Counted from the stretch's first letter, positions 14,874-49,798 are shown. The stretch is DNA of 64,000 bases from an uncultured Chthoniobacter sp. (GCA_964402065.1 CAYOAN010000006.1:105741-169740), one strand, 5' to 3'. The notes: a model not told the origin generated them from the sequence alone. Made by a program: numbers and translations.

Positions 14874-14906
14874 AGCATCCTGGATCACCTCCAGGATGCT
14901 TTTTTT
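14874..14906 (+). terminator. Rho-independent terminator
   Basis: Perfect 11-bp stem AGCATCCTGGA / TCCAGGATGCT, 5-nt loop TCACC, then TTTTTTT. Confidence 0.8.
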
Positions 14907-16641: not shown

Positions 16642-16727
16642 GAAAAAAAAGGGATGAAATTTTTTTGGAAGCTGGTTCCTATTTCAAAAAAAAATAGGAA
16701 GAAAATTGATCAAGCTGAAAAGAACGG

Positions 16728-16856: not shown

Positions 16857-16882
16857 AGGCTCAGCTAGTTGCTAAGGCTGTT

Positions 16883-18460: not shown

Positions 18461-18505
18461 AAAAACAAGATATAATTTGCAGACGGGAGGTTACACGAAA
18501 AACGA

Positions 18506-19528: not shown

Positions 19529-19655
19529 TGAGTGGTTAACAGCGGGTAATAAGTAAGAGGGTCGCCTTCGACAAAGATAAATTTAAAAAAAGTCTCATAG
19601 GCACATCAAATTTATTAAAAACTCATTCATCATGGGTTTCGTCACCCGAAAACCA

Positions 19656-36625: not shown

Positions 36626-37192
36626 ATGTTAAATTCTGCAATGAAATCTCTATTTTTTAAAAAAAAGAACGCTTTTTTTTTGCTGTTTGTTTTTATCCCG
36701 TGGCTCTCTTTGCAAGCCGCACAGCAAATCAAAGTGCCTCTAGGCTGTGCGTGGGGAGAAAGTCCTGGGCAATTAGATGAACTGATTCATGCAGGAGGAC
36801 TCACGCTGGTTGGAACAGAGGTGATTCCTTCCGCCCGAAAAAAAGTTGTGACTGTTCGTGGTGTTATTGGTGCCGCATTAAAACAAAATAACTTTATTTT
36901 TCAAAAAGAAGAACTTACTGAAATTGAATACCAGTACGGTGATTCAAGGTGGGATGACAAAAAGCACCAAGAGTTTTTTGATAATTTTCGACGGATGTTC
37001 GAAAACAAATATGGGCCAGGAACACCATTAACAAAAACGGGAACTCTGCAAAGTAGTGTTGGCGGAATCGCCACCTCAATTGTTGGTTATGAATGGGCTC
37101 AATCTTGTTGTGTGTTAGATCTTTTTTACTATAGCGCAGAACGCGGTGCTCAGCGCTATCAAGTGGTAAGCGTGCATTACAAAATGCCGTAG
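36626..37192 (+). CDS. Hypothetical exported protein upstream of rhs
   Basis: 188 aa with a signal-like FFLLFVFIPWLSLQAAQQ. No family recognised. Confidence 0.45.
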   Translation: MLNSAMKSLFFKKKNAFFLLFVFIPWLSLQAAQQIKVPLGCAWGESPGQLDELIHAGGLTLVGTEVIPSARKKVVTVRGVIGAALKQNNFIFQKEELTEIEYQYGDSRWDDKKHQEFFDNFRRMFENKYGPGTPLTKTGTLQSSVGGIATSIVGYEWAQSCCVLDLFYYSAERGAQRYQVVSVHYKMP

Positions 37193-37358: not shown

Positions 37359-40300
37359 ATGCAATACCTGCCGGCACTTTCATCAACCCTCAGAAACTTT
37401 ATGGTACCCCTTCATTTTGTTGCGATTGGATTAATTTCATTTTGGCCCTTTAATCATACCGATTCGATAGGAGAGCAGCCAAAAAAATTTCAAAAGGAGA
37501 ATGTTGTTCAATATAGCCAATCCATTTACGCAATTGATGCTGAGGAGAAAGCTTGGAAAGGGAGTGTGAAAAATAAGAAAGAGTTAGCAGGTGATGTCAT
37601 TGATGCACAGGTTCACCCTATCTTATTTGAAAAAAAACTTGTTGCTCTCTTTGCTGATGCGGAAGGAAAGCCCATTTTTGAAGATGAGTCAGGGAGTTGC
37701 TACGATGAAGATGGAAACGTTAGCATTGATCCAGTCATCAAATCAGCAAAAGCGCGTGCGGTTTTGCAACATACATCAGGAATAGATTTTTCGAGAAAAT
37801 CACCGCTCGCTATGTTAGATGAAAGTCATCAACTGTTATTGTCGGAGACGGACGCCTCGTCCATTCCTGTAGAGTGGCAGTTAAAATATTTTGGTTATGT
37901 TGGAGTAGATCCTGACGCTCCAGCGCCCAATGGGAGCGGACAGACAATTTTTCAATGCTATTTGCAAGGAATAGAACCGGTAGCTCTAGAGCCAATCACG
38001 ATGAGCATCAGTGCAACAGGTCCTTTTCGAGATCCTGCTAACGTAACCTTAGTCGCTTCGATTACTCACCCAGCTAATGTTGAAATAAGTCATATCGATT
38101 TTTTTTATAGAGGGACAAATGCGGCTAACTGCTTGGGGCATGCAACTACAGAACCCTATCAGATTACGACGAATCTTTTTGGGGCTGGATGTTTTGTTAT
38201 TCAGGCTAAAGCTTATGATTCTAATGAATGCGAAGTAGCAACAGCAACAATGTCGATAGATGTTCTTCCTTCTAATCGATACTTTCGAGGGCTGCTACCT
38301 GGGGTTTACGGCATGCATGAGATGAATTATGTTTCCTCTATTGTTGCGCTTGATTTTCAGCATGGTGTCTCATTGGATGGTACGAATAATACTTCCCTAA
38401 CAGATTTTGATCACCTTTATTCAAGTGGCTACCCTTGGTTTTTGAGGACTGCTTCAGACTTAAAAGGGCCGTGCTATCATCTTATCAATGCTAATGGGGC
38501 GTTAGATTATGTACCTGTTAATATGATTCCAACTGTGGGTGGAGTTGCTGTTGGAGATCAACCTCCCATGGTCGCTTTCGGAAGCCAAGCAGGCTTAGGA
38601 GCAACACCTCTCTTTGTTGATCAAGCGTACCATTTTGGCATTGCTGGCGGAGGAGAAAAACCAGAAGCAATAAAAGATTTAAAAATTGAGGTCTATGAGA
38701 GATCTGCATTTGATGCAGGAAATGCAAATGTACCACCAGTTTTTGTTGCTGATTACAAACTTCCTTCCCTCTTAAATAAATCAGACTCGGATGATTTTTC
38801 TGTTAGTAATTTAACTCAAGATTATCACTTACTTACCAACTGGAATGGAAAGATCATTGATTTTGACACGCAGGTCACTTACCAAATTAATGATCCAGAA
38901 AGTACATGGGGACAATCTGGGAAATATAATTTTATCCTCACCCACAAGGCTGCTAATGACTTGTTCTATTATAAAGTCAGCTTTATGGGAGCGGGGTGTA
39001 CAGAGAAGGATGCGGCGCTTTTTGACATGGCAAAAAATAGCTCAAAAACGACATCGGCATATAATATCAGCTACTCTCTTGATTTTGAGAAACCCCTTCC
39101 TTGGAGGTCAGTTTTTATTAACCAACCTCATTTTCAAACCATTCCGCTTCCAAGTGAATATCAAGGAAAGAGTATTGATGAGCTCCTTCATCAGACGCCG
39201 GCAATTAGTGATGCTTTTACAGCAAAAACGCCTGAACAAATCGAAAAAGAGACAGGGTATGATCTGAGGCTGCTCAATCATAGTACCGAGCTTAAAGACC
39301 ATTCTCTCTTGGATAAGTTGGTATCTGACTTAGAAGGAGATCCCATCAAGATAGCGAACTATGTTCTTAATGAAATAGAGCTTACGGACGCTATTGGGCT
39401 TGGTGTAGAGAATGGAGAGGCAAGCGATTTAGATAAGACCGCTATTAATCCTCAAGGAGTCAATCGCGATGCATTGGCAACTTATTTGGAGGGTCAAGGC
39501 TCTCCTATCGAGCAATGCGCCCTACTTATCTACCTCCTACGGAAGGCCGGTTATTCTGCGGCCTATGTTTTTCCTGATCATAATAAGACACTGATGTTTG
39601 ATCAGGAGCTAAGTAAGATACTTAAAATGCAATTTCGGGGAACCATGTCTTGTGTAGGAAACATGCGCGAGCCTGAACTCATACCTGTCAATTATCCCTG
39701 GGTTGTCTTTTTTGACAAAGATCAAAAAAAATGGATCCATCTTTTTCCATGGATTAAAAATATAAAAGTTAAAGAAGGAAAAGACCTTTGGAATTATTTT
39801 CCATCGGGCTACAACACCCCGCGGCAATGGTTGTTAAAATATCTTCTTAATGATGGGAGTGTTCGCAATCCACTTGAAACAAAAGATCCAGCAATTTTAA
39901 GAGAAGATAATGTTGGAACGCTTTTCCCCTTGTATGCAGCAAAACAGCTAGCGTTGCACAATCTTACCATTGACGATGTGGGTATCCAATTCACGCATCA
40001 ACCTTGTTACTATGAGAGTTGGGATGAGTTTCCTCGTCCATGGGCAACCTCCCCTATTTCTAATGGAAACCTAGCTCAAAATTTAGAAGCGGATCAAAAT
40101 ACGAAGCTAAAACCAGAAATTAAAAATCAGTTAGCGGATATTTTTGACACCATTGAAATAACCGTCATTAGTGATAGGAAAAATAATGGGAGTGTTAATT
40201 TAAAGGATCATCCTGGAGATCCTGTTATTCAAACAGGAGTCCTACGTATGGCGAATCTTCATGATCGTGCTCTATTATTGCATCACGAAGTTGAAACTAA

Positions 40301-43300
40301 TCATCACTACAAGATGATCCTTTCTTTGGATCCTTATGATGCAACTCAAGCAGATAGTGAGCATCAAACTAATAGTTTTTATTCAGGAAATAATCCCACT
40401 CCTTCCTCGGATCAACTTTTAAGAGGCAAGCAAGCCATGAGCGTTGATCTCGATGATCGAGACAATAGCATTTTGTATCACATTCTCTACCGACATCATC
40501 AGCAGGTCTTAAAGGGGGTTGATTACAGTAAACAATTTTTCGGAATTGATGAAATGACAACAATTGATGACACGCGACCTTTATTCAAAGGAGACATGGC
40601 TTGTTTATCATTGTTTTATGGAAGGGTTAGCCCTGAGATGATGAATTTTCAAAATCAAAAATTTATACAATTACGGGATGCCCTTAACAATGGTCCAGCC
40701 TTCTTAGAAAATCAAAATGCCATGAAAGGCCAGTATCTAGCAATTGTTGGGCAATCTTATTATCAAATGGTAGGAGAAACGCAACAAATGCTCGAACGAA
40801 TGAACAAATTGCATGCTGTTTCTTATGCAGCGCATGGATTAACTAAATTGTCTCCACTGCGTGATGATCATAATCAGATCGTTCTTACCACTGATTTCTT
40901 GACTGAGAAGGAAGATCTAAACTTGGTATATCCTAATGTTGATATGAGTTTTCAAACGCTGGTTCATGTTAATAATAGCAGCACTCACTTAGAAGCGAGT
41001 AACGCCTCAGGATCCTATATTGATGTTTTAGGGAATTTATTAATTGGAGAAATTTCCGCTGATGAACATCGTGTTATTGATAAACTGTATGGACAAAAGA
41101 ACGCCATTTCTACGGTTAAGTTACTTGATATTGCACAAGGATGGACATCTGAGGTAGGACTAGCCACACACCCAGGAGAAGGAGCAATCGTCTTAACGGC
41201 TAATAATTATCAAGACGAAGGAAAAAAAAGCTATATTGCGAAAAGAACATCGGATCATGTTCCTCTTAAAAAAACGCTCTCTGAATGGGGTGATCTTATT
41301 GGCGGATACTGGTCAAACCAGGTAAAAAGTACACTGCAAGTTTCTTCTTCTGCTGAAAAGAATTTTATCATCATGACCCCTGGTCCCGTCACAGCAAGTG
41401 GTCAAGAAGGCGGGGTGCCATATACCGGTATGGGTGCTATGGTCTTTACACCTCTTAGTGCTGGGGCCTTGATTACTGGAAGAACAACCATCAATGGCGG
41501 TTACGGTGAGCCAACATATCAATTTGAAAATAATGGAGATTCTATCTTTTTACCTCCTACAACAATAGAGACCAGAGTAAAAATACCAGACTATTATAAA
41601 CTTGAGACCAATCCTCCTAGCAACAGCAATATCAGTATTTCAAATCCTCTCAATCCACAAAATAGTCCCTTTGGATATGGAGGACAATACTATCATGATC
41701 CTCGATTTCTCAATCCCTCGACACCTTCCTGGCAAACTCCTTCGCAACCTTCCTGGCAACCTCCTTCACAACCAAGTCCGCCTCCTTCTTCTCCTGCGAA
41801 TCCCACTATAACGGCACCGCCAGCGCCTTCTCCTGCACCACCAACGCCATCACCCACGCCCCCAGTAAGCCAAGAAAAATTCAAAGAGATAGTTAAAAAA
41901 ACCATCTCGGAAAAAGGGAATACAGGTAGTCCCGTCTTTTATGGAAAGCTCAAGAACTTTGTTATGGATCCAGTGAGCGTGGTAACTGGAGAATTTTATG
42001 TCAACGCTGTTGATCTCAAGTTAGCAGGGCCAATGCCTCTTGAAGTTCGCCGTATTTATAGCTCGCAAAGTAGTGTTAATGAAAATCTGGGGCATGGATG
42101 GAGGCTTAGTTATTTTTCCTATCTGGCGCTCTCGAGTGATAGTGAAACAACGCCAACGATCATTAATGCTGCAGAAATGGATGGCTCTGTTATTTCCTAT
42201 CGCTACAACAAAGATCAACAAATTTGGATGCCACTCCCAAGTGATAATCCAACGCTCATCAACGAAAATGATGGTGCTAACCTTATTAGTAAAAATCTTT
42301 TTAACAACCGCATCACTCAAACAACAAGTGATGGCGCTATTGCCTACACTTTATCGAGTGCGGATGGCAGCAAAAGAGTATTTAAGGTTCATCCTGAATT
42401 CACTCACCAACGACCTTATCTTGATTCGTGGAGCGATCATCAAGGTAATTCCTATCAATTTTTCTTTGGTCAAAATAAGCAATCTTCGGATTATGAACAA
42501 CTCATCCGCATTGCTTCAAGCAATGGCAATACAATCCGTTTCAATTACGATAATAATGGTCATATTGTAAAAGCTTTTTCCAGCGATGGACGCTTGCTCA
42601 AATACACCTATGACAGCAATGGCGACCTTGTTCAAGTTACGCTCTCAGATGGGACAAAAATTAACTACAGCTATAAAATTCTCGATCAAGACTCACCTCA
42701 CCTGCTTGTTCAAGAAATAAAACCAGAAGGACGTAGCTTGCAAAATAATTATGACGCACTAGGCCGCGTTATCACTCAATATGCGACAACTGGCGTTAGT
42801 CCAACAGCAACACTGAGTGGCACCTTTAACTATAGCCTCACTGCTACCAACGCTGATAACACCTTTGATGGAACGACGCTGCTTGTGGATGGTGCTGGCA
42901 ATAAAACGACTTACACTATCTCTCATAATCAAATGACAAGCATAGCTTGTCCTGAAAATCGAACGATCACGCAAACGTGGAATGTGAACGAGAGCTCACG
43001 TTCCCTAGCTAGTGCTGTCGATGTTCGAGGGCTCATAACAAGCTATGACTATGATGGGAGTGGGAATGTTATTAGCCGTAGCCTCAAAGGAGACATTACT
43101 GGCAGCGGGGCAAGCGAAACAGCAAAGACGACATCGACCTACAACAGTCTCAATGTTCTAAGTTCGACTATTGACGCTGTTGGAAACATAACAAAGTACA
43201 CTTATAACAACGCATCATTTCCGTACAATCCAACAACTGTTATGACAACAGCCCCTTCGGGACAAACGGTCAATGCGCTTCAAATTGAGTATACAAAGTC

Positions 43301-46300
43301 TGGAGGTGCTTCTGGACTTGTTTCCAGCCTCAATAATAATGGAGCGATCACAACTTATACCTACGATCAACATGGATTTCCAAATTCCATAACGCAAAAA
43401 ACAGGGACGAAAGATCCCGACCTGACAACAACATTAACCTGCAATGCACGAGGAGAAATTATTGCTGCAACAGATGCTCTCGGACAAAAGAAAAAATACT
43501 TCTACGACGGCCTTGGGCGTCCTACTGGAGTGGAGGTTTATGATAAAACAGGAGCTCTCATCGATTGGCACTTTAAATATTATAACTACAATGGAGAAAT
43601 TGAGTGGGAGCAAGGGGCTCGTTTAAACCCTGTTGATTATACCTATTATGATTATGACCGAGCAGGGCATCTTCTGCACAAGGCAACCTACCTTATTGCT
43701 GGAGCTTCTGCTTGGGCAGGAGAACTAGTTATGAACAACAATGTTGCTTTGACCTCTTACAACTATGACGCACAAGGCAATTGTATTTCCATGACCGATC
43801 CTAATGGCAACATAACAACAATGGGCAACTATGATGCATTAGGAAATATGGGATCACGAACGCTTGCAGATGGAACAAAAGAGAGCTTTAGCTATGAGGC
43901 GGGTGGTAACGTCGCGAGCCATACAACTGTTTTGGGAGCAGCAGAAACTTTTACTTACACCTCAACAGGCCTTATAAAATCTGCTTGTCGCGCTGATGGA
44001 AGTGTAACGCAGTACCAGTACGATCTCATGGGGCATCTTGTTAAAGAGCAATCTTCCCAGGGGCCAACCTGCAATATTACTTATAATGGCAATGTCACTA
44101 CAAAAACATTCAATGCCTCTGGAAAGTCCTTAGGGTCTACATCTGAGTCCTATGATGGACGTGGCAATTTATTACAAAAAACAGATCTTGCAGGCAACCA
44201 ATGGAATTACAGTTACGACAATTTGAATCGTCTTAAAACAGAACAAGGCCCACCAACCTCTGGAACTAGTGCCCAACAAAGTGTCACGCACTACTACGCT
44301 CTCAACTTCGAAACACTTCTCAACGGCGCTGGTGAATGGACTAACCGGTCGTTGGATGCGATGGGGCGTTCTCTGATAATGACCAGCTACAACAAAGATG
44401 GGAGCATTGCTCAAACGATCAGTAATCATTACTCGGGAGATCACCAAAGCATAGAGACAACGGTTGGAACCGGCACTAATGCTATTACAACAACGACCTA
44501 CACGGATACGCGAGAACGTCCTCTTACCATTCAAAACAGTGATGGGAAATGTAAAATTTTCACTTACGATCCTAACGGCAACCTCACTTTTGTTAGCGAT
44601 GAAGATGGTCTTATCACCTGCTATAGTTATGACAGCCTTAATCATCTAGCCTCAGAAACAATTCTTCCTGACGGAACCTTCATTGCTTATAAGTATGATG
44701 CTGCTGGCAATCTTCTCACGCGCTCGATGCCGCATGGCCTCAAAGAACAAAACTCTTATAACGCTGCAGGACAAAAAACTTCCTCTGCCTTATTTGGAGG
44801 TGATGAAGCCGTGACTCGCAACTTCGCTTATCAGTATCAAAATGGCCTTCTCTCTTCGATCCAAGATCCGCGAGGCTTCACAACATCGATTGCCTACGAT
44901 GATTGGAAACGACCTGTAAGCCTTGTTTCAAGCGGAGCTAGCCTTCCTGAACAAAATCAAACAACAGGTTACAAATACGATCCGCGAGGATTTCTTGTGG
45001 CTATAGCTCAACACTACAACGATGCCGCTGCGGGGCCATCTACTCTTGTTTCCAGGTCCTACGATGCCTATGGACAACTCACCTCGGAAACTACCTCTCT
45101 CAATAACAGCAATATTTCCTCTTGGAGTCAAAGATGGGACGCAGCAGGAAGAAGAACGGCCCTCAACTGGAACTTAAATCCGCAAAGCAAAGGTCCGCAG
45201 TATACCTTCTCATACAATGCTCTTGGGGAAATGACTAGCTCTCAAAACGGCTCTGGTACTTATTCCTACGACTATAATAACAATGGATTGCTTTTTCAGC
45301 GAACAACACCACATGGTACAATTTCACTCACTCGTGACGAGCGAGGTCGCATTACCGATATTGGAAATAGCATCAGTAACCTAACGATACTTGCTGAACA
45401 CATCGATTGGAAATTGGACAACAGAATTCAGAGTTATAACGTACTTGAAAATAGGATAGGCGTCCCACAGGAATCGCGTAATTATGGATATGCAGGAAGA
45501 AAAGTGACGCAAGAGCCGTTTATGCTGACGAGTTCTTCTGATCCAACAATGCTTCCGAATGGAACTCAGACAGTGCAATATCTTTTTGATGAAACAAATC
45601 TCCTTCAATTGAATTCAGGCAATATCAATGGACTTGGTGTAAGAACAACCCAAATTATCGATTCAAATGCTGCAAACTGTGTTGCTGCTCAAAATAGCCT
45701 TGGACAGGTCACGCAAGCGAACACTTACTCTTTCCGAGCTATTTATGATTGGATGCTTGCCTACGATGCTGCTGGAAATATGAACAAAGCAACGTTGGAA
45801 ACTTGTGTGGATCAAACATTGACTTGGGACAGCTTTAATCGACTTGTTGATTTCAATCAACGAAGCGTATTAGGACATAATTTTAACCCTCAATGGACTT
45901 CTTCCTATGATTGGAAAACTGCTTACGATGGCCTTGGAAGACGAATACAGACTACTTGTGGAAGTGATATGATTAATTACTACTACGATCCAGAAGTGGC
46001 ATTTTTAGAACTCGGTCGCACCATCAATGGAAGTGAAACCTGGAATCTCTACGGACCTGATCGAAGCGGCATCTATGGAGGAGCTCAAGGCATTGGTGGC
46101 CTTGAAACCAGCTACGATCAAAATACTGGAACAGTGAAAAACTGGGTGAATAATTATTTTGGGGATGCACTAGTATGGTATGACGCGGCAAGCCAGTATT
46201 TCTTAAACCATGGCTCTATCAGTTTTGGAGGCTATGGACCGATGCTTGGAAGCAGTACGCCTGAAAATTCCGACCCTCAATGGCGAGGACATTACGTGGA

Positions 46301-47162
46301 TGAAACAGGCCTCTACTACATGGGAGCTCGCTACTACGATCCGATCAACGGAACATTTATTTCACCAGACCCACTTGGCCATAGTTCTAGCCTAAGCCTG
46401 TATGACTATTGCAACGGCGACCCAGTTAATGGCTTGGATCCCGATGGACGGTGTGTGGAGAAAATCAACAATGCTGAAATCAATGTTGGCTACAGTTGGA
46501 ATCAAGCGTGCAACCAGTACGATTCTGATATTGGAGCTCGCATCTTAGCAGGAATACCTGTGAGCATTCTAAGTGGTGATGCATTCACTCACTACACAAC
46601 GCCACAAGAACAAATGAACCAATACGGCTTTATGCCAGCTGCATTTAGTGCAAATGGGATTTTTGCTGATCGTAGTGATATAATCTATATGAGAAGTAAA
46701 GTTGCTGAAGGACTTAACTTCAATGAAGAGAATATCTTTCAAATTCAAAACCCTTCCTATGGACCACTTGATTTAATAAGAGCAGGAGGACAAGAAGCAG
46801 GGGCGATCGATATCACAGCCTTACGAGCTGCTGATATGATTAATACTTCTGGAGGTGGTTCTTTTGTTGCTCACAGTAATGGATCGGCTCTTTTTTACGC
46901 AGCTTCTGCTCTGCTGAGGCCTGAAGTGAAAGCTCATATTGATTACAGAGGCTATGGACCTCAGATTAATATTAATTCCGGAAATGTGCCTCGACTTCAT
47001 AGCTACCATAATATTACCGGGGCTCATGATTTGGTTGGTACCGTGTTAAATCCAAATGCTCATTGGGATCAAATTATTCCTCAGAGTCCATTACATCCAC
47101 TTGATAATCATAGTTTTAAGAAAACTTATGCTTCGGATGTTTCAAACATGATGACGTTATGA
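37359..47162 (+). CDS. Giant Rhs/YD-repeat polymorphic toxin (3267 aa)
   Basis: Many YD repeats (YDALGR, YTYDSNGDL, YDYDGSGNV, YKYDAAGNL ...). Shell-opening motif DPVSVVTGEFYVNAVDLKLAGPMPLEVRRIYSS...LGHGW. Canonical core end YYMGARYYDPINGTFISPDPLG...YDYCNGDPVNGLDPDGR, followed by a distinct C-terminal domain of about 236 aa. Confidence 0.9.
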   Translation: MQYLPALSSTLRNFMVPLHFVAIGLISFWPFNHTDSIGEQPKKFQKENVVQYSQSIYAIDAEEKAWKGSVKNKKELAGDVIDAQVHPILFEKKLVALFADAEGKPIFEDESGSCYDEDGNVSIDPVIKSAKARAVLQHTSGIDFSRKSPLAMLDESHQLLLSETDASSIPVEWQLKYFGYVGVDPDAPAPNGSGQTIFQCYLQGIEPVALEPITMSISATGPFRDPANVTLVASITHPANVEISHIDFFYRGTNAANCLGHATTEPYQITTNLFGAGCFVIQAKAYDSNECEVATATMSIDVLPSNRYFRGLLPGVYGMHEMNYVSSIVALDFQHGVSLDGTNNTSLTDFDHLYSSGYPWFLRTASDLKGPCYHLINANGALDYVPVNMIPTVGGVAVGDQPPMVAFGSQAGLGATPLFVDQAYHFGIAGGGEKPEAIKDLKIEVYERSAFDAGNANVPPVFVADYKLPSLLNKSDSDDFSVSNLTQDYHLLTNWNGKIIDFDTQVTYQINDPESTWGQSGKYNFILTHKAANDLFYYKVSFMGAGCTEKDAALFDMAKNSSKTTSAYNISYSLDFEKPLPWRSVFINQPHFQTIPLPSEYQGKSIDELLHQTPAISDAFTAKTPEQIEKETGYDLRLLNHSTELKDHSLLDKLVSDLEGDPIKIANYVLNEIELTDAIGLGVENGEASDLDKTAINPQGVNRDALATYLEGQGSPIEQCALLIYLLRKAGYSAAYVFPDHNKTLMFDQELSKILKMQFRGTMSCVGNMREPELIPVNYPWVVFFDKDQKKWIHLFPWIKNIKVKEGKDLWNYFPSGYNTPRQWLLKYLLNDGSVRNPLETKDPAILREDNVGTLFPLYAAKQLALHNLTIDDVGIQFTHQPCYYESWDEFPRPWATSPISNGNLAQNLEADQNTKLKPEIKNQLADIFDTIEITVISDRKNNGSVNLKDHPGDPVIQTGVLRMANLHDRALLLHHEVETNHHYKMILSLDPYDATQADSEHQTNSFYSGNNPTPSSDQLLRGKQAMSVDLDDRDNSILYHILYRHHQQVLKGVDYSKQFFGIDEMTTIDDTRPLFKGDMACLSLFYGRVSPEMMNFQNQKFIQLRDALNNGPAFLENQNAMKGQYLAIVGQSYYQMVGETQQMLERMNKLHAVSYAAHGLTKLSPLRDDHNQIVLTTDFLTEKEDLNLVYPNVDMSFQTLVHVNNSSTHLEASNASGSYIDVLGNLLIGEISADEHRVIDKLYGQKNAISTVKLLDIAQGWTSEVGLATHPGEGAIVLTANNYQDEGKKSYIAKRTSDHVPLKKTLSEWGDLIGGYWSNQVKSTLQVSSSAEKNFIIMTPGPVTASGQEGGVPYTGMGAMVFTPLSAGALITGRTTINGGYGEPTYQFENNGDSIFLPPTTIETRVKIPDYYKLETNPPSNSNISISNPLNPQNSPFGYGGQYYHDPRFLNPSTPSWQTPSQPSWQPPSQPSPPPSSPANPTITAPPAPSPAPPTPSPTPPVSQEKFKEIVKKTISEKGNTGSPVFYGKLKNFVMDPVSVVTGEFYVNAVDLKLAGPMPLEVRRIYSSQSSVNENLGHGWRLSYFSYLALSSDSETTPTIINAAEMDGSVISYRYNKDQQIWMPLPSDNPTLINENDGANLISKNLFNNRITQTTSDGAIAYTLSSADGSKRVFKVHPEFTHQRPYLDSWSDHQGNSYQFFFGQNKQSSDYEQLIRIASSNGNTIRFNYDNNGHIVKAFSSDGRLLKYTYDSNGDLVQVTLSDGTKINYSYKILDQDSPHLLVQEIKPEGRSLQNNYDALGRVITQYATTGVSPTATLSGTFNYSLTATNADNTFDGTTLLVDGAGNKTTYTISHNQMTSIACPENRTITQTWNVNESSRSLASAVDVRGLITSYDYDGSGNVISRSLKGDITGSGASETAKTTSTYNSLNVLSSTIDAVGNITKYTYNNASFPYNPTTVMTTAPSGQTVNALQIEYTKSGGASGLVSSLNNNGAITTYTYDQHGFPNSITQKTGTKDPDLTTTLTCNARGEIIAATDALGQKKKYFYDGLGRPTGVEVYDKTGALIDWHFKYYNYNGEIEWEQGARLNPVDYTYYDYDRAGHLLHKATYLIAGASAWAGELVMNNNVALTSYNYDAQGNCISMTDPNGNITTMGNYDALGNMGSRTLADGTKESFSYEAGGNVASHTTVLGAAETFTYTSTGLIKSACRADGSVTQYQYDLMGHLVKEQSSQGPTCNITYNGNVTTKTFNASGKSLGSTSESYDGRGNLLQKTDLAGNQWNYSYDNLNRLKTEQGPPTSGTSAQQSVTHYYALNFETLLNGAGEWTNRSLDAMGRSLIMTSYNKDGSIAQTISNHYSGDHQSIETTVGTGTNAITTTTYTDTRERPLTIQNSDGKCKIFTYDPNGNLTFVSDEDGLITCYSYDSLNHLASETILPDGTFIAYKYDAAGNLLTRSMPHGLKEQNSYNAAGQKTSSALFGGDEAVTRNFAYQYQNGLLSSIQDPRGFTTSIAYDDWKRPVSLVSSGASLPEQNQTTGYKYDPRGFLVAIAQHYNDAAAGPSTLVSRSYDAYGQLTSETTSLNNSNISSWSQRWDAAGRRTALNWNLNPQSKGPQYTFSYNALGEMTSSQNGSGTYSYDYNNNGLLFQRTTPHGTISLTRDERGRITDIGNSISNLTILAEHIDWKLDNRIQSYNVLENRIGVPQESRNYGYAGRKVTQEPFMLTSSSDPTMLPNGTQTVQYLFDETNLLQLNSGNINGLGVRTTQIIDSNAANCVAAQNSLGQVTQANTYSFRAIYDWMLAYDAAGNMNKATLETCVDQTLTWDSFNRLVDFNQRSVLGHNFNPQWTSSYDWKTAYDGLGRRIQTTCGSDMINYYYDPEVAFLELGRTINGSETWNLYGPDRSGIYGGAQGIGGLETSYDQNTGTVKNWVNNYFGDALVWYDAASQYFLNHGSISFGGYGPMLGSSTPENSDPQWRGHYVDETGLYYMGARYYDPINGTFISPDPLGHSSSLSLYDYCNGDPVNGLDPDGRCVEKINNAEINVGYSWNQACNQYDSDIGARILAGIPVSILSGDAFTHYTTPQEQMNQYGFMPAAFSANGIFADRSDIIYMRSKVAEGLNFNEENIFQIQNPSYGPLDLIRAGGQEAGAIDITALRAADMINTSGGGSFVAHSNGSALFYAASALLRPEVKAHIDYRGYGPQININSGNVPRLHSYHNITGAHDLVGTVLNPNAHWDQIIPQSPLHPLDNHSFKKTYASDVSNMMTL
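41724..41771 (+). repeat. In-frame 2 x 24-bp tandem repeat within the Pro-rich linker of the Rhs protein
   Basis: CCTTCCTGGCAAACTCCTTCGCAA / CCTTCCTGGCAACCTCCTTCACAA, encoding PSWQTPSQ / PSWQPPSQ. Confidence 0.85.
41967..46451 (+). other. Rhs/YD-repeat shell region (residues about 1537-3031)
   Basis: Bounded by DPVSVVTGEF (D1537 at 41967) and LDPDGR (D3027 at 46437). Confidence 0.8.
46452..47159 (+). other. C-terminal toxin domain, putative alpha/beta-hydrolase (lipase/esterase-like)
   Basis: It follows the DPDGR core end. Nucleophile-elbow-like FVAHSNGSALF (S3173 at 46875-46877). Candidate acid and base residues are GAHDLVG (D3224) and LDNHSF (H3251). The fold assignment is inference. Confidence 0.45.
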
Positions 47163-47671
47163 TAGTAAGATCGATTATTCTTAGTTTGGCTTTGTTATGC
47201 AGTGGCTGTTCTATCACTAAAAATATCAGTAATCAGCCTCCGTATAATCACTGCATTGGCAAGAAATTTATTCTTAAAGAGGATATGTATGTTTTTAAGT
47301 TCCATGATAGTCCTGATTATTTTATTGCTCCTGAACATAGCGGCATTACAGGATTACCCCCTTATGTAGATAAGAAATATTTAGAAAATGATTATTTTGG
47401 AAAACATAATTATTATCTCACTATTTTAGGCATCGTTCCAAAAGGAAGTATTTTTAATATTATCCGAGTGGTAAGAAGAACAACCTTTGAACTGTCTTAT
47501 GTGATGTATCTAATAGCATTTGACAATCTGCCATCTATCAAAAATGGAATTATTACAACAGAAATACTCAATTTTGATAATCCGCCAGATGCATTGTACT
47601 GGTCCGATCCCCCAATCTTTGAAGCCAAATTTGCAGAGCCATTACCAAGTGATGGAGTTTGGTGGAAATAA
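47159..47671 (+). CDS. Putative immunity protein 1 (lipoprotein-like)
   Basis: Its ATG overlaps the rhs TGA (ATGA at 47159-47162). 170 aa with a signal peptide and lipobox-like LALLCSGCS, which is atypical at position -3. Two paralogues lie downstream. Confidence 0.6.
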   Translation: MIVRSIILSLALLCSGCSITKNISNQPPYNHCIGKKFILKEDMYVFKFHDSPDYFIAPEHSGITGLPPYVDKKYLENDYFGKHNYYLTILGIVPKGSIFNIIRVVRRTTFELSYVMYLIAFDNLPSIKNGIITTEILNFDNPPDALYWSDPPIFEAKFAEPLPSDGVWWK

Positions 47672-47689: not shown

Positions 47690-47808
47690 GGGGTCAGTCC
47701 CTGATATTGCGTATTTTTGTGCCAGTTTATGATATATTTTAGATGCCATGAACTGATACCAAATATCATAGAGTGCCCCCGAAATACGCAATATCAGGGA
47801 CTGACCCC
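47690..47808. mobile_element. Family-A MITE-like palindromic element (119 bp)
   Basis: 27-bp perfect terminal inverted repeats GGGGTCAGTCCCTGATATTGCGTATTT ... AAATACGCAATATCAGGGACTGACCCC. The interior is also partly palindromic (TATGATAT/ATATCATA). It has no coding capacity. Confidence 0.8.
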
Positions 47809-47812
47809 TTCC

Positions 47813-48067
47813 TTTTACGCAGCTTCTGTCTTGCTGAGGCCTGAAGTGAAAGCTCATATTGATTACAGAGGCTATGGACCTCAGATTAATATTAATTCCG
47901 GAAATGTGCCTCGACTTCATAGCTACCACAATATTACCGGCGCTCATGATTTGGTTGGTACCGTATTAAATCCGCATGCTTACTGGGATAGCGTCATTCC
48001 TCAAAGTCCATTACATCCACTCGACAATCATAGTTTTAAGAAAACATATGCTCCTGAAGCTTATTAA
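47813..48067 (+). pseudogene. Truncated copy of the Rhs toxin C-terminus (last ~85 codons), orphan fragment 1
   Basis: FYAASVLLRPEVKAHIDYRGYGPQININSGNVPRLHSYHNITGAHDLVGTVLNPHAYWDSVIPQSPLHPLDNHSFKKTYAPEAY matches rhs residues 3179 onward. Homology begins exactly at the MITE right end. The Ser elbow is missing. Confidence 0.8.
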
Positions 48068-48081
48068 AGAGCAACGCCCTT

Positions 48082-48579
48082 ATGATCATGCGATTTATTA
48101 TTCTTAGTTTGGCTTTGTTATGTAGTGGCTGTTCTATCACCAAAAATATCAGCAATCAGCCTCCCTATAATCAGTGCATTGGTAAGAAATTTATTCTGAA
48201 GGAAGATATGTATATTTTTAAAGATGACGATACCTCTCTATACTCAATCGCCCCTCAAGATGCTGGAATTAATAACCTGCCTCGTTTCATTGATCCCAAG
48301 TATATTGGCAGGCATATACATAGTCTTACAGTTACAACGATCATTCCAAAAGGAAATGTTTTTACTATTATAAAAGTAATCATAAAAAAAACTTTTGAGC
48401 TATCTTACACAGACTATTTAATATCTTTTGACGATTTTCAATTTACTAAAAAAGGTCTTCTTTCAGGTCAAATATTAAACCTAAATAACCCTCCCTACAC
48501 GCCTCATTGGTCCGATCCCCCAATCTTTGAAGCCAAATTTGCAGAGCCATTACCAAGTGATGGAGTTTGGTGGAAATAA
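48082..48579 (+). CDS. Putative immunity protein 2 (paralogue)
   Basis: 165 aa. The first ~47 and last 23 residues are almost identical to immunity protein 1. The central part has diverged. Confidence 0.6.
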   Translation: MIMRFIILSLALLCSGCSITKNISNQPPYNQCIGKKFILKEDMYIFKDDDTSLYSIAPQDAGINNLPRFIDPKYIGRHIHSLTVTTIIPKGNVFTIIKVIIKKTFELSYTDYLISFDDFQFTKKGLLSGQILNLNNPPYTPHWSDPPIFEAKFAEPLPSDGVWWK

Positions 48580-48597: not shown

Positions 48598-48716
48598 GGG
48601 GTCAGTCCCTGATATTGCGTATTTTTGTGCCAGTTTATGATATATTTTAGATGCCATGAACTGATACCAAATATCATAGAGTGCCCCCGAAATACGCAAT
48701 ATCAGGGACTGACCCC
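48598..48716. mobile_element. Family-A MITE-like palindromic element (119 bp), second full copy
   Basis: Same TIRs and interior as 47690-47808. A short tandem duplication of the end sequence (CTGACCCCTTCC TCTGACCCCTTCC) follows at 48708-48733. Confidence 0.8.
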
Positions 48717-48733
48717 TTCCTCTGACCCCTTCC

Positions 48734-49003
48734 TTTTACGCAGCTTCTGTCTTGCTGAGGCCTGAAGTGAAAGCTCATATTGATTACAGAGGCTATGGAC
48801 CTCAGATTAATATTAATTCCGGAAATGTGCCTCGACTTCATAGCTACCACAATATTACCGGTGCTCATGATTTGGTTGGTACCGTGTTAAATCCAAATGC
48901 TCATTGGGATCGAGTGATACCTCAAAGTCCATTACATCCACTCGATAATCACAGTTTTAAGAAAACTTATGCTCCAGATGTTTTAAAAATGATGACCTTA
49001 TGA
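48734..49003 (+). pseudogene. Truncated copy of the Rhs toxin C-terminus, orphan fragment 2
   Basis: ..LLRPEVKAHIDYRGYGPQININSGNVPRLHSYHNITGAHDLVGTVLNPNAHWDRVIPQSPLHPLDNHSFKKTYAPDVLKMMTL. It has the same breakpoint as fragment 1 and keeps the ATGA overlap with the next immunity gene. Confidence 0.8.
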
Positions 49004-49512
49004 TAGCAAGATTGATTATTCTTAGTTTGGCTTTGGCATGTAGTGGCTGTTCTATCACCAAAAATATCAGCAATCAGCCTCCGTATAATCAGTGCATTGG
49101 CAAGAAATTTATTCTTAAAGAGGATATGTATATTTTTAAATTTCATGGCAGCTTTCAAGGTGCTATAGCAAGGCCTAATAACGGAATGATGGGATTACCT
49201 CGCTATGTAAATAAGAAATATTTAGAGGATGATCATTTTGGAAAAAATAATCATTACCTTACTATTTTAGGCATCGTTCCAAAAGGGAGTATTTTTACCA
49301 TTATAACAGTTATTAATAGACGAACCTTTGAGGGTGCTTATGTCGATTTTCTAATAGATTTTGATGACTTCCCTATTACAAAAAAAGGATTGTTATCAAT
49401 AGATATATGCAATCTTAAAAACCCTCCCTACACGCCTCATTGGTCCGATCCCCCAATCTTTGAAGCCAAATTTGCAGAGCCATTACCAAGTGATGGAGTT
49501 TGGTGGAAATAG
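49000..49512 (+). CDS. Putative immunity protein 3 (paralogue, mosaic of 1 and 2)
   Basis: 170 aa. It shares KKYLE.D.FGK.N.YLTILGIVPKGSIF with protein 1, and FDDF..TKKGLLS / NPPYTPHWSDPP with protein 2. Confidence 0.6.
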   Translation: MIARLIILSLALACSGCSITKNISNQPPYNQCIGKKFILKEDMYIFKFHGSFQGAIARPNNGMMGLPRYVNKKYLEDDHFGKNNHYLTILGIVPKGSIFTIITVINRRTFEGAYVDFLIDFDDFPITKKGLLSIDICNLKNPPYTPHWSDPPIFEAKFAEPLPSDGVWWK

Positions 49513-49517: not shown

Positions 49518-49791
49518 GGGTCAGTACTAGCTAATTCATGAGCAGAGCGATGCATTGCAGGAGAGAGCTCTTTGCTACTCGAGAAAGAAAAAGGCTTTCC
49601 AACTAGTTCTACAATCAAAACCAAACTCAGCAACCTTTACTTGAAGCTAGAAGAAAGATGCTTATTTTCATCAAATGCTCTGCTCCAGCTCTAGAAAAAC
49701 CCAGCCTCTGAGCCAGATTCAAAAAACTAATGAACTGGCACCAAATATCATAGACTGGCACCAAAATACGCAATATCAGGGACTGACCCCT
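49518..49791. mobile_element. Family-A element, long/degenerate copy
   Basis: Degenerate left end GGGTCAGTACTAG at 49518. Intact right arm ATGAACTGGCACCAAATATCATAGACTGGCACCAAAATACGCAATATCAGGGACTGACCCC ends at 49791. About 200 bp of unrelated sequence lies between them. Confidence 0.55.
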
Positions 49792-49798
49792 TTGCACT

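What the first reader, a model, noticed from the sequence alone, without database searches (positions are those of the whole stretch)
37359..47162. 3267-aa Rhs protein with a ~1500-aa non-Rhs N-terminal region and no recognisable T6SS or Tc delivery module
The YD-repeat shell spans residues ~1537-3031. It follows about 1480 residues with no PAAR, VgrG, SpvB/TcB or haemagglutinin/TPS motifs that I can recognise. No T6SS, Tc or two-partner-secretion gene is present in the window. The N-terminal region contains four elements:
- A hydrophobic signal- or anchor-like start (VPLHFVAIGLISFWPF).
- An Ig-like-looking segment (residues ~215-300).
- A stretch resembling the Cys loop of transglutaminase-like/papain-fold domains, GSPIEQCALLIYLLRKAGYSAAYV (Cys720 at 39516-39518). 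The usual downstream His/Asp (H.W.E...DP) is not evident, since the sequence reads NYPWVVFFDKDQKKWIHLFPW.
- A Pro-rich linker (about 41716-41872) with a 2 x 24-bp in-frame tandem repeat, a potential length-variable site.
The only secretion hardware hinted at in this window is a T3SS. How a Gram-negative cell would export and deliver this protein is therefore an open question.
Basis: partly seen in the sequence, partly recalled or inferred. Interest (0 to 1): 0.7.

Follow-up and report, generated by a model that had tools for sequence, protein, structure and literature searches.

The report
Sec-exported Rhs toxin, transglutaminase-like leader
This giant gene encodes a bacterial toxin capsule (Rhs) whose long front half is a conserved, transglutaminase-shaped module preceded by an ordinary export signal, an architecture shared by hundreds of mostly Verrucomicrobiota proteins and noted in 2012 but never studied experimentally.

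Summary
Every element of the observation checks out. These are the 3267-aa ORF, the Rhs shell from ~1537 to 3030, the Ig-like segment, the transglutaminase-like Cys loop lacking His/Asp, the Pro-rich linker with a 24-bp x2.1 repeat, a T3SS secretin nearby, and no T6SS/Tc/TPS gene in the window.

The interpretation that no delivery module can be recognised is only partly right. Residues ~324-1383 form a conserved ~1060-aa module. It defines a family of at least 309 clusters (50% identity, E<=1e-30), mostly from Verrucomicrobiota. In 107 of 108 members with enough sequence, the module is followed by a 67-241-aa linker and then the DUF6531 plug. Of 73 full-length members, 66 start with a Sec-type hydrophobic leader.

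AlphaFold2 plus Foldseek place the module with factor XIII/TG2-type transglutaminases. Its last ~300 aa match no known fold.

Zhang et al. (2012) already described "inactive transglutaminase" domains placed after a signal peptide and before RHS repeats.

The C-terminal toxin carries an alpha/beta-hydrolase-like Ser/Asp/His pattern. It is followed by three diverged lipoprotein immunity genes, which suggests an antibacterial toxin acting in the periplasm.

Export therefore starts with Sec. How the protein crosses the outer membrane and enters a target cell remains unknown.

Verdict: a new member of a computationally known but uncharacterised kind.

The parts
37359..47162 (+). rhs-family polymorphic toxin gene, 3267 aa. 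The true start is probably Met15 at 37401.
   Evidence: ORF list and translation. Orthologues L004 and P0001 begin at the position of Met15.
37401..37451 (+). N-terminal hydrophobic signal or anchor segment (MVPLHFVAIGLISFWPF, residues 15-31).
   Evidence: Read directly from the sequence. Of 73 full-length family members, 66 have a signal-peptide-like hydrophobic N-terminus.
37971..38294 (+). Bacterial Ig-like (Big/Fn3-like) domain, residues ~205-312. This is the variable adhesion-type decoration.
   Evidence: The family profile hits GH9 Fn3-like modules and chitodextrinase Ig domains. Homologues carry PF17957 at the same place.
38328..41507 (+). Conserved ~1060-aa family module, residues 324-1383. 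It consists of beta-sandwich region(s), a transglutaminase-like core, beta-barrel-like domains and a novel C-terminal subdomain.
   Evidence: Alignments A2, A3 and A5. AF2 model with pLDDT 83.8 and pTM 0.86. Foldseek matches factor XIII, TG2, TG3 and protein 4.2. The representative library holds 645/447/309 relatives at E<=1e-3/1e-10/1e-30.
39441..39581 (+). Transglutaminase-like Cys loop, residues 695-741. Cys720 is encoded at 39516-39518. The His and Asp positions hold Tyr779 and Phe796.
   Evidence: Sub-threshold Pfam Transglut_core hit here, and hits in 14 of 15 relatives. Conservation: C720 156/166, Y779 160/165, F796 157/165.
40593..41507 (+). C-terminal subdomain of the module, residues 1079-1383, with no detectable known fold. 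Glu1236 and Ser1251 are invariant. His1237 and Asp1195 are nearly invariant.
   Evidence: AF2 model with pLDDT 80.8. Foldseek finds nothing at E<=1e-3 in the PDB or BFVD.
41508..41966 (+). Poorly conserved Pro/Ser/Thr-rich tether, residues 1384-1536. It contains a 24-bp x 2.1 in-frame repeat at 41723-41773.
   Evidence: TRF result. The family linker between module and plug has a median of 117 aa and ranges from 67 to 241 aa.
41967..42140 (+). DUF6531 Rhs N-terminal plug, residues 1537-1594. It starts with PVSVVTGEF, which resembles the TseI N-terminal self-cleavage signature.
   Evidence: Pfam PF20148, E=2e-15. The motif comparison is with Pei et al. 2020 (PMC7170923).
42141..46448 (+). YD-repeat (Rhs) shell with the Rhs-associated core, residues 1595-3030. 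The core spans 2967-3030 and ends in ...DPVNGLDPDGR.
   Evidence: RHS_repeat E=5.6e-60, YD_repeat_2x, and Rhs_assc_core E=2.9e-18.
46449..47159 (+). C-terminal toxin domain, residues 3031-3267. It shows an alpha/beta-hydrolase-like pattern: Asn3099-Gly3100, Asp3138, Ser3173 (in AHSNG), Asp3224 and His3251.
   Evidence: These are invariant columns of alignment A6, with positions confirmed. The pattern equals the 'Tox-AB hydrolase2' signature of Zhang et al.. No Pfam or PDB sequence match was found.
47159..47671 (+). Immunity gene 1: a 170-aa lipoprotein (MIVRSIILSLALLCSGC...). Its start codon overlaps the rhs stop codon (ATGA).
   Evidence: Homologues follow the same toxin domain in L010, L011 and L015, with a conserved lipobox Cys.
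47813..48579 (+). Second repeat unit: a remnant of the last ~270 nt of the toxin gene (47813-48081) plus immunity paralogue 2 (48082-48579, 165 aa, 64% identical to copy 1).
   Evidence: Direct-repeat families D1-D3 with ~920-bp spacing. BLASTP comparison.
48734..49512 (+). Third repeat unit: a toxin 3' remnant (48734-48999) plus immunity paralogue 3 (49000-49512, 170 aa, 71% identical to copy 1).

Best explanation
This is a Sec-dependent, T6SS-independent Rhs polymorphic toxin of the "inactive transglutaminase-RHS" class, from a Chthoniobacterales-like Verrucomicrobiota genome. Each step below is marked as shown or inferred.

1. An N-terminal hydrophobic leader sends the protein through the Sec translocon. 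This is inferred from the sequence and from the family-wide signal peptides.
2. The mature protein is modular, and this domain order is shown. It runs: a variable adhesion-type head (an Ig-like domain here; RCC1 propellers, PA14, SBBP or Calx-beta in relatives), a conserved ~1060-aa module, a ~120-150-aa Pro-rich flexible tether, the DUF6531 plug, and the YD shell enclosing the C-terminal toxin.
3. The conserved module has a factor XIII-like domain arrangement. Its transglutaminase core keeps the Cys but has Tyr and Phe at the His and Asp positions. I infer that it is a non-catalytic binding or anchoring scaffold that holds the cocoon at the cell envelope or surface and probably takes part in target recognition. 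Its last ~300 aa have no known fold. They carry an invariant Glu/Ser and near-invariant His/Asp site of unknown role.
4. The shell's Rhs-associated core should release the toxin inside the cocoon by aspartyl autoproteolysis after ...DPDGR (residue 3031). This is inferred from established Rhs/TcC biochemistry. An N-terminal self-cleavage before PVSVVTGE (Asp1537|Pro1538) is possible but uncertain.
5. The toxin is predicted to be an alpha/beta-hydrolase-type esterase or lipase with Ser3173, Asp3224 and His3251. It would act on the periplasmic side of a Gram-negative envelope. The cognate immunity proteins are lipoproteins, which supports this (inferred).
6. Three diverged immunity copies, each preceded by a toxin 3' remnant, arose by ~920-bp tandem duplication (shown). 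They probably broaden protection against variant toxins of kin (inferred).

The steps across the producer's outer membrane and the target's outer membrane are not identified.
For: - Architecture.
- Family and strict coupling to Rhs: 34 genome loci, mostly Verrucomicrobiota. The module is followed by plug and shell wherever the contig extends far enough. The representative library holds 645/447/309 relatives at E<=1e-3/1e-10/1e-30. Of 108 members with room after a complete module, 107 have the plug. The linker ranges from 67 to 241 aa.
- Sec leaders: classical signal peptides such as MKKALLFLFLAGAAGVQAQ in minimal members. Of 73 full-length members, 66 have a hydrophobic leader, and in 28 the module starts within 60 aa of the N-terminus.
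- Transglutaminase-like fold: AF2 pLDDT 83.8 and pTM 0.86. Foldseek's top 48 PDB hits are FXIII, TG2, TG3 and protein 4.2, with best E=1.3e-5 and probability 0.85. Pfam Transglut_core scores below threshold in 14 of 15 members.
- Remodelled triad: C720 156/166, Y779 160/165, F796 157/165.
- Prior description of this architecture and of the anchoring idea: PMC3482391.
- Toxin and immunity: invariant N-G, D, S, D, H pattern, matching the Tox-AB hydrolase2 signature. The toxin and the lipoprotein immunity co-occur in L010, L011 and L015. The stop and start codons overlap as ATGA. The immunity array is tandem.
- Organism: the window aminotransferase clusters at >=90% identity with proteins named Chthoniobacterales or Verrucomicrobiota.
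- No conserved flanking partner gene across 36 loci. The largest accessory cluster occurs in only 6 loci.
Against: - No experiment exists for any family member. Surface display, contact dependence and the binding role of the module are inferences.
- Foldseek TM-scores are low (0.10-0.17). The match rests on E-value, probability, the consistency of the hit list and sub-threshold Pfam hits. A PDB sequence-profile search of the TGase-like region found nothing.
- Cys720 is 94% conserved. That is high for a purely structural residue in an exported protein, so a catalytic or covalent role cannot be excluded.
- The window protein's own leader lacks a clear n-region and cleavage site, so it may be an uncleaved anchor.
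- The second Glu needed for TseI N-terminal cleavage is Phe here.
- The rest of the genome could not be surveyed for T2SS, T6SS or T9SS.
Confidence: 0.62

Rival explanations
1. The protein is released as a soluble, bacteriocin-like toxin rather than tethered to the surface for contact-dependent delivery. Release could be through a T2SS, outer-membrane vesicles or cell lysis. The N-terminal module would then serve as the receptor-binding and uptake part, as in colicin-type toxins.
For: - Sec leaders and the absence of a linked outer-membrane partner gene.
- Variable lectin- or adhesin-like heads that could bind receptors on targets.
- Zhang et al. file such toxins under 'T2SS/Sec'.
- A Xanthomonas bacteriocin paper surfaced in a literature search on Rhs/YD-repeat terms (PMC7259588). 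I did not read it in detail.
Against: - A folded ~350-kDa protein with an Rhs cocoon is larger than known T2SS substrates (my own knowledge).
- No T2SS gene is in the window. The only secretin is a T3SS SctC.
- Several close relatives, and the window protein itself, have anchor-like rather than cleavable leaders.
Confidence: 0.18
2. The transglutaminase-like domain is catalytically active. It would use Cys720 with a non-canonical partner such as His794. It might cross-link the protein to peptidoglycan, to its own surface or to a target-cell protein, or it might process the toxin.
For: - Cys720 is kept in 156/166 representatives and His794 in 136/164.
- The surrounding Arg703, Glu711, Glu718, Gln719 and Arg728 are 95-100% conserved.
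- The 'EQC' motif resembles the animal 'GQC' active-site motif (my own knowledge).
Against: - The canonical His and Asp positions are Tyr and Phe in about 95% of members.
- Ten representatives replace the Cys with Ser, Ala, Asp or Asn.
- Zhang et al. reached the same 'inactive' verdict for this architecture.
Confidence: 0.12
3. This is a Tc-like (ABC-type) toxin aimed at a eukaryotic host of a T3SS-bearing symbiont. The N-terminal module would play the part of a TcA-like binding and translocation component, and the Rhs part that of TcB-TcC.
For: - The genome encodes a T3SS secretin and an IpgD/SopB-like effector with its chaperone, which suggests a host-associated lifestyle.
- In three loci the module and the Rhs part are separate ORFs. 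In L038 and L025 a giant PA14/RCC1 protein is a further adjacent gene, giving a multi-component layout.
Against: - No SpvB, TcB beta-propeller or TcA signature is present.
- The shell is closed by a DUF6531 plug, as in Rhs proteins.
- The toxin is paired with a tandem array of lipoprotein immunity genes, which is the hallmark of interbacterial toxins.
- Two of the three split cases look like frameshifts. L001 has overlapping frames, and the L038 Rhs ORF has no leader.
Confidence: 0.06
4. It is an ordinary T6SS Rhs effector whose adaptor or PAAR-like region is too divergent to recognise, served by a T6SS encoded elsewhere in the genome.
For: Only 64 kb of the genome could be inspected. Most characterised Gram-negative Rhs toxins are T6SS cargo (PMC7170923; PMC8765631).
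Against: - Family-wide Sec signal peptides are incompatible with cytoplasmic loading onto VgrG.
- There is no PAAR, VgrG, DUF4150 or DUF1795 hit.
- No conserved T6SS-like neighbour occurs in 36 loci with up to 10-kb flanks.
- The N-terminal region is 3-10 times longer than T6SS Rhs N-termini (my own knowledge).
Confidence: 0.03

Closest known systems
Polymorphic toxins with an N-terminal inactive transglutaminase domain followed by RHS repeats (Zhang, de Souza, Anantharaman, Iyer & Aravind 2012, Biol Direct 7:18; PMC3482391)
   Same: - A signal peptide or TM helix, an occasional bacterial Ig domain, a transglutaminase-like domain lacking catalytic residues, RHS repeats, then a variable toxin with a downstream immunity gene.
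- Verrucomicrobia are listed among the carriers.
- The class is filed as Sec-dependent.
   Different: - The paper describes only the transglutaminase domain and proposes surface anchoring by peptide binding.
- Here the conserved unit is ~1060 aa: a factor XIII-like multi-domain arrangement plus a ~300-aa subdomain of unknown fold.
- Identity with the exact sequences of their Figure 5D could not be checked.
T6SS Rhs effectors (for example Aeromonas TseI, Pseudomonas protegens RhsA)
   Same: - DUF6531-type plug with a PVSxVTGE signature.
- YD shell.
- Rhs-associated core that autoproteolytically releases an encapsulated C-terminal toxin.
- Immunity gene downstream.
   Different: - Those proteins have no signal peptide. 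They have short PAAR, prePAAR or VgrG-interacting N-termini and depend on VgrG, chaperones and a T6SS.
- This protein has a Sec-type leader and a 1500-aa N-terminal region, with no T6SS signature.
WapA of Bacillus subtilis / Streptococcus suis (Sec-dependent Rhs toxins of Gram-positives)
   Same: A Sec-exported, cell-envelope-associated Rhs polymorphic toxin used in interbacterial competition (PMC12704120 abstract; my own knowledge of Koskiniemi et al. 2013).
   Different: - WapA is anchored by cell-wall-binding repeats in a monoderm.
- This protein is in a diderm, has a different N-terminal module, and must also deal with an outer membrane.
Bacterial teneurin-like proteins (TLPs; Nat Commun 2026, PMC13018210)
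   Same: - Sec-signal-bearing, surface-displayed YD-shell toxins with variable adhesion domains and polymorphic C-terminal toxins.
- Their delivery mechanism is explicitly stated to be unknown.
   Different: - TLPs have TTR, TIP, FN-plug and NHL beta-propeller domains and the teneurin-type shell.
- None of these is detected here, and TLPs have no transglutaminase-like module.
Animal transglutaminases and the inactive paralogue protein 4.2
   Same: These are the best structural matches of the module, over ~800 aligned columns covering a beta-sandwich, the core and barrel domains. Protein 4.2 is a precedent for a catalytically dead transglutaminase used as a scaffold (my own knowledge).
   Different: Sequence identity is 8-10% and TM-scores are only 0.10-0.17. 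The His and Asp are replaced. An extra C-terminal subdomain is present. The context is bacterial and secreted.
Tc (ABC) toxins and CdiA two-partner-secretion toxins
   Same: As functional analogues, they are large modular devices that combine receptor binding, a tether or stalk, and delivery of a polymorphic or encapsulated toxin.
   Different: This protein has no SpvB, TcB propeller or TcA domain, no TPS domain or FHA repeats, and no CdiB/TpsB partner gene.

Membership tests
Rhs/YD-repeat polymorphic toxin | Array of YD/RHS repeats forming the shell | tested here: met
   PF05593 with 11 stretches, E=5.6e-60. TIGR01643 E=7.2e-51.
Rhs/YD-repeat polymorphic toxin | N-terminal plug (DUF6531) and C-terminal Rhs-associated core with DPxG-type motifs | tested here: met
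   PF20148 at 1537-1594 (E=2e-15). TIGR03696 at 2967-3030 (E=2.9e-18). The core ends in ...DPVNGLDPDGR. Actual autoproteolysis cannot be tested here.
Rhs/YD-repeat polymorphic toxin | Variable C-terminal toxin with a cognate immunity gene immediately downstream | tested here: met
   The same toxin domain and the same lipoprotein travel together in L010, L011 and L015, while other family members carry other C-termini. The stop and start codons overlap as ATGA.
T6SS-delivered Rhs effector | PAAR, prePAAR or VgrG-interacting N-terminus; no Sec signal; linked vgrG or chaperone genes | tested here: not met
   No such Pfam or NCBIfam hit. Hydrophobic Sec-type leaders are found across the family. No T6SS gene is in the window, and there is no conserved neighbour in 36 loci.
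Tc toxin TcB-TcC | SpvB domain and integrin-like beta-propeller closing the cocoon; a TcA partner | tested here: not met
   No SpvB, propeller or TcA hits in the protein or the window.
Two-partner secretion (CdiA/FhaB-type) toxins | N-terminal TPS domain, FHA repeats, and a TpsB/CdiB gene | tested here: not met
   No hits in the protein or the window.
Inactive-transglutaminase RHS polymorphic toxins (Zhang et al. 2012) | [quoted passage not shown] | tested here: met
   The hydrophobic segment at residues 15-31. Of 73 full-length relatives, 66 have signal-peptide-like starts.
Inactive-transglutaminase RHS polymorphic toxins (Zhang et al. 2012) | Transglutaminase-fold domain lacking one or more of the Cys/His/Asp triad | tested here: met
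   Foldseek matches FXIII and TG2. Sub-threshold Transglut_core hits occur in 14 of 15 members. Tyr779 and Phe796 occupy the His and Asp positions by my hand alignment to the FXIII motifs. Their conservation is given.
Inactive-transglutaminase RHS polymorphic toxins (Zhang et al. 2012) | Followed by RHS repeats; sometimes adjacent to bacterial Ig domains | tested here: met
   Of 108 members with room after the module, 107 have the plug and shell. An Ig-like domain lies at residues ~205-312.
Inactive-transglutaminase RHS polymorphic toxins (Zhang et al. 2012) | Sequence homology to the proteins in their Figure 5D alignment | not testable with these tools
   The figure and its sequence identifiers are not held, and the supplement search found nothing.
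Bacterial teneurin-like proteins | TTR, TIP and FN-plug domains, an NHL beta-propeller, and a teneurin-type YD shell | tested here: not met
   Only RHS_repeat and DUF6531 are found. There is no NHL or TEN_YD-shell hit for the window protein.
Tox-AB hydrolase2 (Zhang et al. 2012) alpha/beta-hydrolase toxins | Signature NG, [DE], [KR], HSxG, D, H in that order | tested here: met
   Invariant or near-invariant N3099-G3100, D3138, R3141, (H)S3173-N-G, D3224 and H3251 in alignment A6. The signature is quoted.
Tox-AB hydrolase2 (Zhang et al. 2012) alpha/beta-hydrolase toxins | Alpha/beta-hydrolase fold and esterase or lipase activity | not tested
There is no Pfam hit and no PDB sequence hit. One weak PET-hydrolase match at E=0.51 is not evidence.

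The most novel reading that the evidence does not exclude
The ~1060-aa transglutaminase-like module with its Pro-rich tether could be a self-contained, T6SS-independent delivery device for Rhs cocoons in diderm PVC bacteria. It would display the cocoon on the producer's surface, bind the target through exchangeable adhesin heads, and carry the toxin across the target's outer membrane. The fold-orphan C-terminal subdomain (invariant Glu1236 and Ser1251, near-invariant His1237 and Asp1195) would act as a new enzymatic or triggering element. That would amount to a new contact-dependent inhibition route.
Probability: 0.25. Interest if true: 0.75.

Novelty: new member of a known kind. Interest (0 to 1): 0.42.

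Why it matters
How Sec-exported YD-shell toxins of diderm bacteria leave the producer and enter a target is an open problem. The 2026 teneurin-like-protein paper says as much for its own family.

This work shows that the 2012 "inactive transglutaminase-RHS" architecture is more than a stray domain. It is a large, strictly conserved ~1060-aa module-tether-cocoon design. The design dominates in Verrucomicrobiota and has at least 309 clusters at 50% identity.

The work also gives a confident structural model and pinpoints an orphan subdomain with an invariant polar site. It predicts a periplasm-acting hydrolase toxin with lipoprotein immunity. It identifies cultured carriers (Verrucomicrobium sp. 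BvORR034 and BvORR106) in which the delivery question can be tested directly.

For the window itself the result is mostly clarifying. The gene is an ordinary member of that class, and the neighbouring T3SS is unrelated.

Tried and rejected
- The first homologue search used residues 1-1536 and returned only 5 proteins. The Pro-rich linker probably swamped the word index. Repeating it with a core-only profile gave 46.
- A representative search with alignment A3 failed because the profile exceeded 1,200 positions. It was redone with the trimmed alignment A5.
- PDB sequence-profile searches found only the Ig-like domain for the whole module. They found nothing for the transglutaminase-like region and nothing for the toxin.
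- Foldseek of the C-terminal subdomain gave no significant match against the PDB or BFVD.
- An hhalign test of whether that subdomain is a second degenerate transglutaminase domain was negative (probability 0.8%).
- A tblastn search of the module against PLSDB plasmids gave no match.
- A search of the 2012 paper's supplements for the member list found nothing.
- An exact look-up of the window protein's own contig, meant to extend beyond the window, found nothing on record.
- The 188-aa ORF upstream (36626-37192) was tested as a conserved partner. It is absent from all other loci.
- A ~280-aa secreted protein upstream of the gene occurs in only 6 of 36 loci and has no Pfam hit. I rejected it as a general partner.
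- The T3SS as export route was rejected. SctC is separated from the gene by an opposite-strand transporter gene, and the family carries Sec leaders.


Full report
**Observation**

The ORF 37359..47162 (+) encodes 3267 aa. Pfam and NCBIfam place DUF6531 at 1537-1594, eleven RHS_repeat stretches, and the Rhs-associated core at 2967-3030. They find nothing in residues 1-1536 or 3031-3267.

- The hydrophobic start is there.
- An Ig-like domain lies at about residues 205-312. The family profile matches Fn3-like/bacterial Ig modules with E=3e-9.
- The Cys720 loop is transglutaminase-like (details below).
- The Pro-rich linker contains a 24-bp x 2.1 repeat at 41723-41773.

About 45 other ORFs of the window were scanned. 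They are housekeeping genes apart from two T3SS-related items. One is a T3SS secretin SctC at 32691-35111 (TIGR02516, 333.7 bits against a cut-off of 238.45). The other is an IpgD/SopB-like protein with a CesT/SicP-like chaperone at 24553-26654. There is no T6SS, Tc or two-partner-secretion gene.

**Source organism**

The exact protein is in the public collection, on a 171,395-bp NCBI contig, without a name. A window aminotransferase shares a 90% cluster with proteins labelled Chthoniobacterales or Verrucomicrobiota. The window therefore most likely comes from a Chthoniobacterales-like Verrucomicrobiota genome with about 44% G+C.

**The N-terminal region is a conserved family module**

A scan of one genome per species found 34 loci encoding relatives. 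Most are from Verrucomicrobiota: Chthoniobacterales, Terrimicrobiaceae, Verrucomicrobium sp. BvORR034 and BvORR106, Haloferula, Puniceicoccaceae and Akkermansiaceae. A few come from bins with odd labels.

In every locus that extends far enough, the region homologous to residues ~324-1383 is followed by the plug and the Rhs shell. Complete genes encode 2979-4063 aa.

A profile search of 1.84 billion representative proteins found 645, 447 and 309 relatives at E<=1e-3, 1e-10 and 1e-30. Counts among the listed members are as follows.
- Of 108 members with at least 300 aa after a complete module, 107 carry the DUF6531-type plug.
- The linker between module and plug is 67-241 aa, with a median of 117.
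- Of 73 full-length members, 66 start with a hydrophobic signal-peptide-like segment.
- In 28 of those 73, the module begins within 60 residues of the N-terminus. Those proteins are signal peptide, module, linker and Rhs, with nothing else.

Examples of the leaders are MKKALLFLFLAGAAGVQAQ and MKRLIVLFLALLSLPAFSQ. Other members insert variable heads before the module. These include Big_9/Ig, RCC1 propellers, SBBP and Calx-beta. In L025 and L038 a giant RCC1/PA14/fn3 protein is encoded immediately upstream instead.

The window protein's closest relatives (P0001, L004) begin at the position of its Met15, so 37401 is the likelier start.

**Structure of the module**

AlphaFold2 on a 39-sequence alignment gave a confident model of residues 324-1383, with mean pLDDT 83.8 and pTM 0.86.

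Foldseek against the PDB returned animal transglutaminases and their inactive paralogue protein 4.2 as the top 48 hits. Factor XIII chain 1evu_B was best (E=1.3e-5, probability 0.85), followed by TG2 and TG3 entries. The alignments cover about 800 columns. TM-scores are low (0.10-0.17), as expected when several domains are oriented differently.

Two independent observations support the assignment. First, Pfam Transglut_core scores below threshold on the Cys-loop region in 14 of 15 diverse family members. The best E-value is 3.5e-6, and the window protein scores E=0.046 at residues 695-741. My hand alignment to the FXIII motifs puts Tyr779 and Phe796 at those positions.

Conservation across about 165 representatives is as follows.
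- Cys720: 156/166
- Tyr779: 160/165
- Phe796: 157/165
- His794: 136/164
- Arg703: 166/166
- Arg728: 165/166

The site is therefore remodelled but strongly conserved. That pattern fits a binding pocket better than a protease or transglutaminase active site. The 94% conserved Cys leaves some doubt.

The last ~300 aa of the module (residues 1079-1383) were modelled separately, with pLDDT 80.8. They have no match at E<=1e-3 in the PDB or BFVD and are unrelated to the transglutaminase-like part. This subdomain carries Glu1236 (133/133), Ser1251 (133/133), His1237 (126/133) and Asp1195 (125/138). Its role is unknown.

**Prior knowledge**

Zhang et al. [quoted passage not shown] They are occasionally adjacent to bacterial Ig domains and lack one or more of the Cys/His/Asp residues. 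[quoted passage not shown] They file them under Sec-dependent ("T2SS") toxins and list Verrucomicrobia among the carriers.

The window protein meets every stated feature of that class. I could not verify homology to their particular sequences. None of the homologues retrieved here carries a functional name; sources call them "hypothetical protein", "RHS repeat protein" or "DUF6531 domain-containing protein", and my literature searches found no experimental study of such a protein.

A 2026 paper on bacterial teneurin-like proteins covers a different family of Sec-dependent YD-shell toxins. It states that their delivery to targets remains to be elucidated (PMC13018210).

An outer-membrane proteome of Akkermansia muciniphila detected YD-repeat proteins in the outer-membrane fraction (PMC4960237). 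This fits envelope localisation in this phylum, but those proteins were not shown to belong to this family.

**Rhs part**

The plug begins with PVSVVTGEF (Pro1538 onwards). This closely resembles the "PVSMVTGEELL" signature that follows the N-terminal self-cleavage site of the T6SS effector TseI, where E428 and E429 are required (PMC7170923). Here the second Glu is Phe1546, so N-terminal self-cleavage is possible but uncertain.

Three loci encode the module and the Rhs part as separate ORFs.
- In L001 the frames overlap, which looks like a frameshift.
- In L037 the Rhs ORF has its own signal peptide (MRVSFTILSLLLSHSLCAEQ).
- In L038 it has none.

At least the L037 case suggests that the two halves can work as separately exported partners.

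**Toxin and immunity**

The C-terminal 237 aa have few homologues and no Pfam domain. An alignment of ten relatives has the following invariant or near-invariant residues.
- Asn3099-Gly3100
- Asp3138
- Arg3141 (near-invariant)
- Ser3173, in [H/Y/F]-S-[N/Q]-[G/A]
- Asp3224
- His3251

This order equals the "Tox-AB hydrolase2" signature of Zhang et al. (NG, [DE], [KR], HSxG, D, H). The fold itself was not modelled.

The rhs stop codon overlaps the start of a 170-aa gene as ATGA. Its product has a lipoprotein-type leader ending in a Cys. That Cys is conserved, with canonical lipoboxes, in the homologues that follow the same toxin in L010, L011 and L015.

Downstream are two further ~920-bp units. 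Each consists of a remnant of the last ~270 nt of the toxin gene plus a diverged immunity paralogue (64% and 71% identity).

Lipoprotein immunity points to a toxin that acts on the periplasmic side of Gram-negative envelopes, and so to interbacterial antagonism.

**Mechanism**

Shown:
- the domain order;
- the strict module-linker-Rhs coupling;
- the family-wide Sec-type leaders;
- the transglutaminase-like fold with a remodelled triad;
- the toxin-immunity linkage and its tandem amplification.

Inferred:
- Sec export;
- envelope or surface anchoring and target binding by the module and its variable heads, with the cocoon on a flexible Pro-rich tether;
- autoproteolytic release of the toxin inside the shell;
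- hydrolase action in the target periplasm;
- protection of kin by the lipoproteins.

Unknown:
- how the protein crosses the producer's outer membrane;
- how the toxin crosses the target's outer membrane;
- what the orphan subdomain does.

No conserved neighbouring gene that could supply these functions was found across 36 loci. The nearby T3SS secretin is very unlikely to be involved. A Sec-type leader and a folded ~350-kDa cocoon do not fit T3SS substrates.

**Verdict**

The finding is real and well described. The architecture is not unprecedented, however. It is a new member of a class that is known from computation but has never been studied experimentally.

What is added here:
- the true extent and structure of the N-terminal module;
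- the size of the family and its concentration in Verrucomicrobiota;
- the orphan subdomain with an invariant polar site;
- the predicted toxin and immunity biology;
- cultured carriers suitable for experiments.

Interest is moderate, at 0.42. The most novel reading not excluded is that the module is an autonomous delivery device for Rhs cocoons. I give this a probability of about 0.25.

Noticed in passing
window 32691-35111 (+) and 24553-26654 (-): A Verrucomicrobiota-like genome carries a T3SS outer-membrane secretin SctC, standing alone among housekeeping genes. About 6 kb away lies an IpgD/SopB-like inositol-phosphatase-type effector with a CesT/SicP-like chaperone. Together these suggest a lifestyle associated with a eukaryotic host.
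   Followed up: partly
window 57661-59979 (+): A 772-aa ORF (GTG start) has a signal-like N-terminus and long Glu/Lys/Gln-rich, coiled-coil-looking sequence. The DNA has a strong AT skew (+0.30 in 58001-60000). There is no Pfam or NCBIfam hit. It may be a secreted or effector-like protein.
   Followed up: partly
window 47748-47810, 48656-48718, 49730-49792: A 63-nt element (ATGAACTGATACCAAATATCATAGAGTGCCCCCGAAATACGCAATATCAGGGACTGACCCCTT) recurs after each of the three immunity genes at 90-100% identity. The third copy lies outside the ~920-bp repeat register.
   Followed up: no
L025 3390-9212 and L038 2797-9957: Giant secreted proteins lie directly upstream of the module-Rhs genes. One has RCC1 propellers with fn3, Big_7 and FG-GAP domains (1940 aa). 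The other has PA14 plus RCC1 domains (2386 aa). [quoted passage not shown]
   Followed up: partly
L021 1960-2838, L024 8479-9297, L026 8482-9345, L032 8815-9348, L034 7007-7870, L035 6978-7829: A conserved ~280-aa protein with a signal peptide and no Pfam hit lies just upstream of the toxin gene. It occurs in 6 of 36 loci (Terrimicrobiaceae and Puniceicoccaceae types) and could be a lineage-specific accessory factor.
   Followed up: partly
L037 2336-7912 / 7975-15651; L001 10001-15211 / 15181-20550; L038 10001-15178 / 15253-21477: In these loci the transglutaminase-like module and the Rhs part are separate ORFs. In L037 the Rhs ORF has its own signal peptide. L001 looks like a frameshift within the linker. 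The L038 Rhs ORF has no visible leader and is followed by a 162-aa immunity candidate with no leader.
   Followed up: partly
window 1-2000: G+C is markedly low (0.31, against about 0.44 for the rest of the window) upstream of the mnmG/gidA gene.
   Followed up: no
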